This document shows, piece after piece, positions 7,501 through 63,523 of a stretch of DNA of 64,000 nucleotides. Position 1 is the first letter of the stretch, and every line of letters begins with the position of its first letter. A model generated the notes under the pieces. It worked only from the letters and a program-made list of their open reading frames with translations. It was not told the origin of the DNA and searched no databases. The stretch is from Octopus vulgaris (lineage: Eukaryota), in contig OX597815.1 of assembly GCA_951406725.2 (NCBI GenBank), positions 194,928,001 through 194,992,000 on the forward strand. Reading direction: 5' to 3'. Both the position numbers and the translations under genes were made by a program.

Positions 7501-7649
7501 TTAATCAACATTAATGCATATTTATTCATGCAAATATACTTATCGAAAATTGGTATACGTACTAATATTCTAAGTGATATAATATACTTTATATAACTTA
7601 AGAATGTTCTAGTAAACATGATGTTATAGCGGTAGCTGTAGCATGGAAT

Positions 7650-7796
7650 ATTGTGACAAATTAAATTTAAATGTTGAAGTGAATCTAACGTTTTTTGTGT
7701 TTTTTCTTAGATGGCTTATAAACACCTTCCACGCTGCAATTGTTTTCGTTCCAGCACACGATCAGGTCACTTGCTATGCAAGTACATCTCCGTAAT
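7650..7796 (+). mobile_element. Partial copy of the repeat family at 63176-63390
   Basis: Clear reverse-complement similarity (tgacaaattaaa...aagtacatctccgtaat). Confidence 0.8.
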
Positions 7797-41384: not shown

Positions 41385-42430
41385 AAAGAACGGAAGTTTC
41401 ATAAATATAATGAAGAAACATGAAGAAATAACAATCTTCTATATAGACAAGGAAGTGATAAAATACAAAACAGAATAAGATGACACTGAAACGATAAAAT
41501 TAGAAAACATAAATTCAACAAACATTGTTAATGTGACAGAAACAATATCAAAAGGAAATTACAAATCATATTCGAGATGAAACAGAGCTAAAACCCATTC
41601 CATGGTCAATAACCTTTACATCTCGATAGACTAGAAGTAAATGAACTTAAATAATAAATGGTTAAAGAAACACGAATGGAGGACTGATTCCTGGTGCACA
41701 ATACAAATAAATATAAGAAAAGTATCATGAAATCAGACAACAAAATGAAATTCGGAATATACAACCCGCACAATGAGACATTATATTCGGTCGTTCAGTC
41801 CTTGCCAACTCTGAATATGCACTCGGGAAGTATCGATGTGAAAATGAATGAATGATACAAGCATGTAAAAAACGACGATCACCTGGTATCGATTATATGA
41901 GAAATGCTGCACCAAACATACCAAGAGATCAATTCTACTAATACAAACATACTAATAAATGCCTGTTTAAAAAAAAAAAAAGTATGTAAACTGATAGATA
42001 TTTCAATCATTTCTGATGAAATATTTACCAAAGGATTTGGTTTGCAAGATTCGTTATATGAGTTGGTGTGTTGAAACATATTCTGTTGTGTCTGGGGATT
42101 GTCACTTTCTTTTTGTGCCTTATAATGTAATAGTCAAGACTATTGAAAAGGTTGCAAGACGCAACGAAAATTTTAGGGAACTAAAAATAAGAAATAAGTG
42201 GAAATTTTACCGGTGAGTGTGTTACATTCGAAGACACAAAAAAAAAAAAATTTCTTTCCCCAGACACAACAGAATTTACCAAAGGGAAATGGATAAATTA
42301 TCCAAATAAAAAGATCTTGAAACTGAAATAATTAAAATATTGGACACAAAGATGAAAGCAATAAAACTAAATGTTGGTACATTAGGTATGATTAAAAGTA
42401 CAGAGAAACCAAAGCACTCAAAAGCAACTT
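41385..42430 (+). mobile_element. Degenerate R4/Dong-clade LINE fragment, locally rearranged
   Basis: Residual KP.HGQ, EGLIPGAQ, IKILDTKMKAIKLNVGTLGMIK motifs; follows a (TAC)n tract. Confidence 0.55.
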
Positions 42431-43332: not shown

Positions 43333-43390
43333 GTACGTTTATATATTTGTTGTGCAAGATTTTTTATGTGAAGTCGTGTGTTGAAACAGA

Positions 43391-44552
43391 TATTGTTATA
43401 TTTTGGAATGGTCATTTTGCCAGTTTAGCCAAAAAAAAAAGAATAGGGAAGGCCAACCCTTGGTATGATAGCCATAAATACCAGAGTGTCATGTTCGTTG
43501 ATACCACCCCTGGAGGTGAACTGGCGTACCGCTTTAGAAGGACCCCAGACAAACTTAAGCTAAAGATTAAGGTTGTTGAAAAGCCAGGCAACCCTATCAA
43601 ATCGATAATTGGTAAAACCTATACTTTTAGTAGAACCCCCTGTACGGATAAGTACTGTACTGCATGTAGTTTAGCCCACAAACAAACTGTAAAGCCAGAA
43701 ATGTAGTCTATAGTATAAGATGTATAGAGGGACGATGCAGTAACAAGACAACGACATACGTAGGGGAAACGGCAAGAAGCATAGGAGAGCGGGTAAATGA
43801 ACATAGGAGACAACTCAAGGAAGGTTAAAACTCATCGATTCTGTACCAACATGCCGAACAGGAACACGGGGGATCAATCAACAACATAGAAATTAAAATA
43901 TTGTCCATACAGATGCAACAATCAGACAAATTACAGAAGCTACACACATAAAAGAAAATAAACCTAGTCTGAATAGAAAACTAGAATGGAACACTAGCAC
44001 ACACCACAACATATGATGGTAGAGGACCCCGAAAACATAATAAATACACAGATAAATAAACAAATAGAAATAAATAACTATATATATATATATTTTTTGA
44101 ATTATTATTATTATTACTAGTATTGTTGTTATACATACATACATACAAGCATATGTAGTGATAATAATAAGTGGATGTAAACACATGAACAAAATAAGAA
44201 TAAACAAAAACAACAACAAAAACAAATTACATGAACGTATATAAACAGAAGATACAAATAATACAGGCATCCCCCCACACACGCTAAATAAACATAGACG
44301 CACATAGAGATATAAGCATGCGCAAATGAAGACATACAATAGAAATACAAAATGGCTGACGGTTAGTAAGGAGAGACACAAATAAGAAAGAAGAAAACAA
44401 AGGAGCACTGATGCGGTCACAGGAGTGTGACGAAATAAGATTAAGATTAATGTAAAAAATAAATAACACTGGAGCAAAGTAACACCAAATATATAGTGCG
44501 TGTGTTTTTATTGGCTAAACTGGCAAAAAGACCATTCCGAAATATAACAATA
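43391..44552 (+). mobile_element. 5'-truncated Penelope-like element: linker plus CCHH-type GIY-YIG endonuclease, with inverted termini
   Basis: SVMFVDTTPGGEL..IKVVEKPG..C..C..C; VYSIRC..YVGETARSIGERVNEH..LYQHAEQEH..EATHIKENKPSLNRKLEW. Inverted repeat 43391-43432 / 44511-44552. Confidence 0.85.
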
Positions 44553-55080: not shown

Positions 55081-55513
55081 GGACGTTTTCGGCTTGAACG
55101 ACAGTTTTTAACATAATTTCTAGGTAACTAAAAAAATTTTAAACTTTGTATATTGGCAGAATGTGTTTATAAAACACATTTTTTTTTCTTGGCTCTATTG
55201 AGAAAAATCTATAGTTTGTAAGATATTTGTTGTTTTTTTTCTTCAATTTCTGCAATTTCAACCAATCAGTGATGTCTATTGAGGTAAAAAAATTCTGTGC
55301 CGTATGAATATGTCCCTCGTTTAAGAAACAGATTTGGTTTATTTACATTTGTGAAGAAAAAAAGATAGCCTTCCCCCCCCCTAACCCTAACCCTAACTAA
55401 CCCTAGCCCTAAAACAGATTGAAATGCAATAGATTGATACTAGGGTCATAATTATGGGTGACAATTTCATATGACACCGCTAGAAAAAACTGCCGTTCAA
55501 ACCGAAAGGATCC
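55081..55513. mobile_element. MITE with 8-bp TSD (Merlin-like) containing (TAACCC)n
   Basis: Imperfect TIR GGA..TTTCGG.TTGAACG.CAGTTTTT; perfect TSD ACGTATAG. Confidence 0.85.
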
Positions 55514-63175: not shown

Positions 63176-63390
63176 ATTACGGAGATGTACTCGCATAGCA
63201 AGTAATTTGATCTGAGATCGTGTGCTGAAACGAAAACAATTGCAGCGTGGAATGTGTTTATAAGCCATTTAAGAAACACACAAAAGCCGTTCGATTCACT
63301 TCAACATTTAAGTTTAATTTGTCGAAATATTTTCGTCGCTAAAATCCGCGACCTGTTCACTGACAAAGTCCGTGCTGCATCTAAGAAAGT
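63176..63390 (-). mobile_element. Penelope-derived repeat in (TA)n carrying a G3-C8 hammerhead motif
   Basis: Second copy at 7650-7796; (TA)n on both sides. Confidence 0.7.
63318..63367 (-). ncRNA. Hammerhead ribozyme-like motif, G3-C8 core variant
   Basis: TTTGTCa-GTGAACA-G-GTCGCggattttaGCGAC-GAA-AATATT-T-cGACAAA. Confidence 0.65.
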
Positions 63391-63523
63391 AAATATATAT
63401 ATATATATAAGAAGGTAAATATATATATATATATGTAAATATATATATATATATTCACACATATATATATATATATATATTAACACATATATATATATAT
63501 TAACATATATATATATATATATG

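What the first reader, a model, noticed from the sequence alone, without database searches (positions are those of the whole stretch)
63318..63367. Hammerhead motif with swapped G3-C8 catalytic core pair
Seen on the minus strand: stem I TTTGTC/GACAAA, core GUGAACA instead of CUGANGA, one extra G, perfect 5-bp stem II GTCGC/GCGAC, GAA, and palindromic stem III AATATT. Known: C3-G8 is a tertiary Watson-Crick pair, and the double swap to G3-C8 restores activity in mutagenesis; natural examples are uncommon and missed by canonical searches. A palindromic stem III is typical of dimer-cleaving PLE hammerheads. The copy at 7650 has TGACAAA, which would complete stem I. Inference: a natural core-swapped ribozyme family.
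Basis: partly seen in the sequence, partly recalled or inferred. Interest (0 to 1): 0.75.

Follow-up and report, generated by a model that had tools for sequence, protein, structure and literature searches.

The report
Core-swapped hammerhead in Penelope retroelement
A very common jumping gene in this animal genome carries a hammerhead RNA motif whose key inner base pair is flipped relative to its sister families; the flipped motif has been kept over a long time and likely still cuts slowly, but cutting is untested.

Summary
Real. 63318-63367 (-) is a minimal type I hammerhead in a 5'-truncated end piece (pLTR) of a Penelope-like element (RT + C-terminal GIY-YIG). G3-C8 is the family norm: 5,221 genomic matches; 0 of 41 non-G3 copies have C3+G8. 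Most copies have U1.1 and a 7-bp stem I; the window copy is a C1.1 mutant, and the 7650 copy lacks the core. Homologous sister families in the same genome carry C3-G8 or U3-A8 at the same place, with compensatory stem changes, so this is true covariation. An older G3-C8 family (72-78% identical flanks) keeps core and stems and has a 4-nt instead of 6-nt palindrome. Against strict catalytic need: mismatched G3-G8 and A3-C8 copies look over-represented, a young sister family has A9C, and most inserted copies come from uncut RNA. Best reading: a slow, dimer- or protein-assisted ribozyme; cleavage untested. I found no natural G3-C8 in the papers I could search, but Lunse 2017 was unavailable. The scan noted this family twice before in this genome and G3-C8 motifs in other genomes. 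New variant of a known kind.

The parts
63176..63392 (-). 5'-truncated pLTR copy of a Penelope-like element, set in (TA)n
63381..63392 (-). pyrimidine tract + AG, splice-acceptor-like; many copies begin just behind it (start site or acceptor, not resolved)
   Evidence: sequence; 5' ends 55-61 nt upstream of the cut site in 42 of 148 alignments of a biased set
63361..63367 (-). stem I, 5' strand (TTTGTCA)
63354..63360 (-). core G3 U4 G5 A6 A7 C8 A9 (swapped 3-8 pair)
63353..63353 (-). unpaired nucleotide between 9 and 10.1, usual in PLE minimal hammerheads
   Evidence: PMC4209133
63335..63352 (-). stem II (5 bp, G10.1-C11.1) with 8-nt loop; the loop varies between subfamilies
63332..63334 (-). 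G12 A13 A14
63326..63331 (-). palindromic stem III AATATT (A15.1-U16.1); AATT in the older G3-C8 family
63324..63325 (-). predicted scissile bond after U17; 1.1 is C in this copy, U in the family
63318..63324 (-). stem I, 3' strand
63176..63268 (-). start of the element's ORF (ATG 56 nt behind the cut site), forming the 3' tail of the pLTR
   Evidence: (L183 frame)
7647..7794 (+). older, shorter copy of the same pLTR, lacking the core

Best explanation
This is the end repeat of a Penelope-like retrotransposon carrying a minimal type I hammerhead whose 3-8 base pair is G-C where sister families have C-G, and it likely still cuts after U17, slowly and probably only as a dimer or with help from the element's protein. 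Shown: family identity, layout, covariation, long retention. Inferred: a transcript starting about 56 nt upstream of the cut site runs through pLTR-ORF-pLTR; two copies pair through the AATATT palindromes to build stem III; C8 stacks in the G8 position and supplies the 2'-OH general acid. Cutting would decap the mRNA 56 nt before the AUG or trim read-through RNA, while uncut RNA serves as the main template for insertion. U17 probably makes the swap tolerable, because C17 could trap G3 in a wrong Watson-Crick pair. The window copy is a passive insertion with a 1.1 mismatch and is probably weaker than the family form.
For: 5,221 matches, control 0; 0 of 41 non-G3 copies are C3+G8. Among 49 loci chosen without regard to position 3: with G8, C3 20 and U3 6 of 26, G3 0; with C8, G3 9 of 14; with A8, U3 5 of 7. 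Hand-picked 11-row alignment: 3-8 pair GC 6, CG 3, UA 1; stem II 100% paired with A-U/G-U/G-C at one pair. Metagenome relatives carry C3-G8 or U3-A8 hammerheads of the same layout behind the ORF (14 of 69 loci). Old versus young G3-C8 families: spacer 38/53 and ORF start 67/87 identical, but 31 of 31 core and paired positions identical, palindrome 4 versus 6 nt, U17 in both (the query pattern fixed about 20 of these positions). Found by downstream DNA alone, the old family still shows C8 (12 of 15 kept rows), stems and AATT. Stems I and II fold with probability 0.7-1.0 in the 217-nt context. In the Anolis PLE, C3G/G8C partly rescues cleavage, which needs protein (PMC11167929).
Against: No cleavage data; only contigs were available. 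Of 435 G3/non-C8 copies, the first 100 hold 35 G8 versus 17 A8 (by eye), scattered over the tree (21 changes versus 25.3 shuffled) and sometimes in both arms of an inverted insertion, so mismatched templates were copied. The old family has A3 in 6 of 15 rows against a 13% background (two of the 15 rows are probably inverted junk). A young sister family with intact ORFs has A9C. About three quarters of the first 100 of 8,907 copies retain the full core (by eye). 5' ends at the cut site are only weakly raised (7 of about 51 truncated loci against about 3 per position, by eye). G3-U17 extends stem I in the predicted fold (p 0.67), and the active dimer is 3.9 kcal/mol above the dimer minimum.
Confidence: 0.6

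Rival explanations
1. The hammerhead fold is kept for a non-catalytic job (binding site or folding switch for the RT-endonuclease near the start codon and RT initiation sites); cleavage is negligible.
For: Most inserts derive from uncut RNA; core variants A9C, G3-G8 and A3-C8 recur in this clade; in the Anolis element inactive mutants insert normally in vitro and no reads end at the cut site.
Against: The single-stranded catalytic residues (U4, G5, A6, G12, A13, A14, U16.1, H17) and a Watson-Crick 3-8 pair are kept across families whose flanks have diverged; a binding site need not keep the NUH rule.
Confidence: 0.2
2. A ribozyme released from selection: the two changes were fixed by drift in a successful element, and the motif is dead.
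For: Mismatched 3-8 states propagate; among young and mid-age subfamilies the lack of core changes is not significant at about 10% divergence; PLE clades without canonical hammerheads proliferate well (PMC8557442).
Against: After the swap, loop II, N7 and the spacer changed while stems, core and palindromic symmetry did not. For the 11 positions not fixed by my query, full retention at 72% background has p about 0.03; for all 31, about 4e-5 (own arithmetic).
Confidence: 0.15
3. An efficient, self-sufficient monomeric ribozyme that defines the RNA ends.
For: Strong stems I and II; the highest single count of 5' truncations lies at position 1.1.
Against: Stem III is one A-U pair; no clear pile-up of 5' ends at the site; PLE minimal hammerheads are inactive as monomers.
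Confidence: 0.05

Closest known systems
[quoted passage not shown]
   Same: Type I layout, extra nucleotide after 9, G10.1-C11.1, GAAA, palindromic 15-16, UH, position in pLTR, mostly truncated single copies.
   Different: G3-C8 instead of C3-G8 (the parts read report U3-A8 only); extra nucleotide is G where their consensus has H; 7-bp stem I.
Poseidon element PAc of Anolis carolinensis (Frangieh et al. 2024, PMC11167929; parts 1-2 of 4 read)
   Same: Hammerhead beside the ORF start; pLTR tail made of the ORF start with two 3' ends (here about +88 and +148); AT-rich targets; uncut RNA as template.
   Different: There G3-C8 is an engineered rescue, here it is natural; here the cut site lies 56 nt upstream of the AUG, there 26 nt downstream; this element has a CxxxCxxC linker of Neptune/Nematis type.
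Natural core variants of Perreault et al. 2011 (PMC3088659; passages seen)
   Same: Natural covariation of the 3-8 pair (U3-A8).
   Different: No G3-C8 in the passages seen or by string search.
PLE hammerhead variants of Lunse, Weinberg and Breaker 2017 (not held; nothing read beyond its citation in PMC6765202)
   Same: By title, PLE-associated small variants that cleave as dimers.
   Different: Unknown whether G3-C8 is among them.

Membership tests
PLE minimal type I hammerhead | Stem I closes the motif (type I) | tested here: met
   7 bp in the family form, p 0.7-0.99; window copy has a 1.1-2.1 mismatch
PLE minimal type I hammerhead | Literal CUGANGA core (C3, G8) | tested here: not met
   GUGAACA
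PLE minimal type I hammerhead | Watson-Crick pair between 3 and 8 | tested here: met
   G-C, covarying with C-G and U-A in sister families; minority mismatched copies exist
PLE minimal type I hammerhead | Extra nucleotide after 9, G10.1-C11.1, GAAA | tested here: met
PLE minimal type I hammerhead | Palindromic stem III and U16.1-H17 | tested here: met
   AATATT-U here, AATT-U in the older family
PLE minimal type I hammerhead | Located in the pLTR of a PLE | tested here: met
PLE minimal type I hammerhead | Self-cleavage as a dimer | not testable with these tools
   no raw reads; genomic 5'-end test inconclusive
Rfam hammerhead families | Covariance-model match | tested here: not met
   no hammerhead hit to E 10; canonical sisters also gave none at E 0.01, so the test is insensitive
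EN+ Penelope-like elements (Neptune/Nematis type) | One ORF with RT and C-terminal GIY-YIG | tested here: met
   RT and GIY-YIG motifs read in L038, L183; Pfam RVT_1 and GIY-YIG weakly in 4 of 31 aligned proteins each, not in the query itself
EN+ Penelope-like elements (Neptune/Nematis type) | CX2-5CxxC linker, (TA)n targets, tandem and inverted pLTRs | tested here: met
   CQSNCAVC linker; inversions; direct pLTRs 4,261 bp apart; definitions from PMC8557442
EN+ Penelope-like elements (Neptune/Nematis type) | Clade placement by RT tree | not tested
   no reference PLE sequences at hand

The most novel reading that the evidence does not exclude
One clade of retroelements records the whole walk of a ribozyme active-site pair: C-G, U-A and G-C states joined by mismatched templates that still transposed, plus A9C. 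The G3-C8 state is viable only on a U17 background. These hammerheads are selected to be slow, protein-gated switches between mRNA and template rather than efficient cutters, and a whole class of swapped-core hammerheads is hidden from standard searches.
Probability: 0.3. Interest if true: 0.65.

Novelty: new variant of a known kind. Interest (0 to 1): 0.45.

Why it matters
It gives natural covariation evidence for the third Watson-Crick state of the hammerhead 3-8 tertiary pair, which in the papers I could search appears only as an engineered rescue. It shows that CUGANGA descriptors miss thousands of motifs in one genome. It also supplies a natural allelic series (C3-G8, U3-A8, G3-C8, A9C, mismatched forms) in closely related, recently active elements, which makes the open question of what PLE hammerheads do directly testable.

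Tried and rejected
Rfam scans: only microsatellite-driven noise among the 150 of 257 rows shown, no hammerhead. RNA evidence: no RNA holder listed; contigs only. Hypothesis that element 5' ends mark the cut site: not supported as the main pattern, weak at best. Hypothesis that G3-G8 copies are one basal intermediate clade: not supported, they are scattered on a short-alignment tree. Search for unrelated G3-C8 families with another stem II: counts equal to control and none evident in the first 100 of 4,231. A spliced first exon upstream of the AG: no shared upstream sequence seen. One search used a mis-registered structure and is superseded. PDB search gave only weak RT hits. Literature: paper searches and passages of PMC3088659, PMC11014351, PMC6155905, PMC6765202 and PMC8495972 showed no natural G3-C8. 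Lunse 2017 and Hammann 2012 were not held, so novelty in print is not settled.

Full report
Observation. The motif is present as described on the minus strand: stem I 5' strand 63367-63361, core GUGAACA 63360-63354, one extra G, a 5-bp stem II with G10.1-C11.1, GAA, the palindrome AATATT, U17, and the 3' strand of stem I. A relaxed descriptor allowing any Watson-Crick 3-8 pair finds only this site in the window and 1 hit in 300 resampled windows. Stem II folds as drawn. The window copy has C at 1.1 opposite A2.1, whereas the family has U. The copy at 7647 starts at stem III and lacks the core.

What it belongs to. The 217-nt stretch is a high-copy repeat: 1,580 candidates, 40 scored, the top ones 98-99% identical. 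[quoted passage not shown] Pfam supports RT and GIY-YIG only weakly, in 4 of 31 aligned proteins each. Copies end in (TA)n, are often 5'-inverted, and occur as direct pLTR-ORF-pLTR units 4,261 bp apart. This is an EN+ Penelope-like element of Neptune/Nematis type by the criteria in PMC8557442 (passages); I built no RT tree. A protein labelled Octopus vulgaris matches this genome at 100%. The ORF starts 56 nt behind the predicted cut site (window 63268). Copies end at two places, about +88 and +148, like the two RT start sites of Anolis PAc.

Is G3-C8 the norm? Yes. The pattern with G3, C8 and both stems has 5,221 matches, control 0, over several loop-II subfamilies. In the 8-nt-loop set, 41 copies have another base at 3 (20 A, 10 T, 11 C) and none is C3+G8. 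In contigs of four runs under four organism labels no variant at 3 or 8 reaches 5%, though depth there is low. Of the first 100 of 8,907 copies found by a downstream anchor, about 77 reach position 3 and about 74 of them are G3-C8 (by eye).

Is it covariation? The sister family (57% amino-acid identity) has, at the same place before a homologous ORF start, C3-G8 with stem II GTCAC/GTGAC. Other sisters have a G-U at that stem pair and stem I GTCA/TGAC like ours, and a third family has U3-A8. In 49 loci chosen without regard to position 3 (the first 30 of 363, plus 19 picked by position 8): G8 goes with C3 20 and U3 6 of 26; C8 with G3 9, A3 3, U3 1, C3 1 of 14; A8 with U3 5 of 7. A hand-picked 11-row alignment gives 5 pairs with changes on both sides, including 3-8 (one row misaligned, rows related). 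Of 69 metagenome loci, 14 carry the same layout with C3-G8 or U3-A8 and none G3-C8 under the strict descriptor. C3-G8 is therefore most likely ancestral, and the swap arose in this lineage (inference).

Was it kept after the swap? An older G3-C8 family exists. Its majority sequence differs from the young family in N7, loop II and the spacer (38/53 identical; ORF start 67/87), but not at 31 core and paired positions. Its stem III is the 4-nt palindrome AATT rather than AATATT, and both have U17. My pattern fixed about 20 of those positions. A search with downstream DNA only recovered the same family: of 29 rows, 15 retained a homologous 5' half, with C8 in 12.

Results against strict need for catalysis. 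In those 15 rows position 3 is G in 8 and A in 6, above the 13% background (p 0.009; two rows are probably inverted junk). Among 435 G3/non-C8 copies the first 100 have 48 T, 35 G and 17 A at position 8 (by eye). G3-G8 copies are scattered on the tree of 89 rows (21 changes versus 25.3 shuffled, 32 of 1000 shuffles as low) and sometimes fill both arms of an inverted insertion, so mismatched templates were copied. The youngest sister family has A9C. Most inserts contain the intact motif. 5' ends cluster 55-61 nt upstream of the cut site (42 of 148 in a set biased toward ribozyme-bearing copies, 7 from local tandems). A targeted list gave 7 of about 51 truncated loci ending at 1.1, against about 3 per position, two of them explicable by stem-I microhomology (by eye, first 100 of 725). 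That is no clear cleavage footprint.

Mechanism. By established hammerhead chemistry G12 is the base and the 2'-OH of residue 8 the acid, held in place by the 3-8 pair. G8C costs about 10^5-fold and C3G partly restores it (PMC8495972, passages). In the Anolis PLE the double mutant partly restores cleavage, cleavage needs the protein, and uncut RNA is the main template (PMC11167929). Minimal PLE hammerheads are inactive alone and weak as dimers (PMC4209133). Kalweit et al. note, as data not shown, that G3-C8 is less active with C17 than with G17 (PMC3884650, discussion read), which fits its occurring here with U17. In folding, stems I and II are stable; G3-U17 competes (p 0.67), and the active dimer lies at -28.8 against a minimum of -32.7 kcal/mol. 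I conclude it is most likely a slow, dimer- or protein-assisted cutter (0.6), with a non-catalytic fold (0.2), a dead relic (0.15) and an efficient monomer (0.05) as rivals.

Novelty. The layout, extra nucleotide and palindrome are known PLE features. U3-A8 is a reported natural covariation. I found no natural G3-C8 in paper searches or in the passages read. Lunse 2017, the likeliest place, and Hammann 2012 could not be read, and one supplement file of PMC4209133 was not searchable. The bioRxiv paper 10.64898/2026.07.22.740005 (part 1 of 5 read) gave context only. Earlier scan notes report this family twice in this genome and G3-C8 motifs in three notes from other genomes; I did not check the latter. 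Verdict: new variant of a known kind, interest 0.45.

Noticed in passing
window 43333-44552 (+), core at 44408: Fragment of the sister PLE family (endonuclease end + pLTR) with a C3-G8 core, A9C, and stem III / stem I 3' strand deleted.
   Followed up: partly
window 42143-42180 (+): U3-A8 hammerhead of a third related PLE family, also in L251, L272 and L275. All three pair states occur in this one window.
   Followed up: partly
L170 (G000:C19:14371000-14380900), L071-L100: Very young sister family (99% identical copies, open ORFs up to about 1,310 aa, 4,587-bp tandem unit) with A9C, while older copies have A9. Metagenome locus L101 has U3-A8 with C9.
   Followed up: partly
G000:C1, 8 of the first 100 rows: A recurring truncated form that stops inside the core and continues with one fixed junction sequence, apparently a propagated palindromic non-autonomous derivative.
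   Followed up: no
L188 and L205: Inverted insertions whose two arms differ in the core (one G8, the other C8 with U9), possibly from two different templates.
   Followed up: no
window 63381-63392 and family upstream: Branch-point-like ACTAAC, pyrimidine tract and YAG directly before the main cluster of 5' ends, reminiscent of the intron ending at helix I in Drosophila virilis Penelope.
   Followed up: partly
window 55381-55412; L057 upstream of the pLTR: Short telomere-like TAACCC runs.
   Followed up: no
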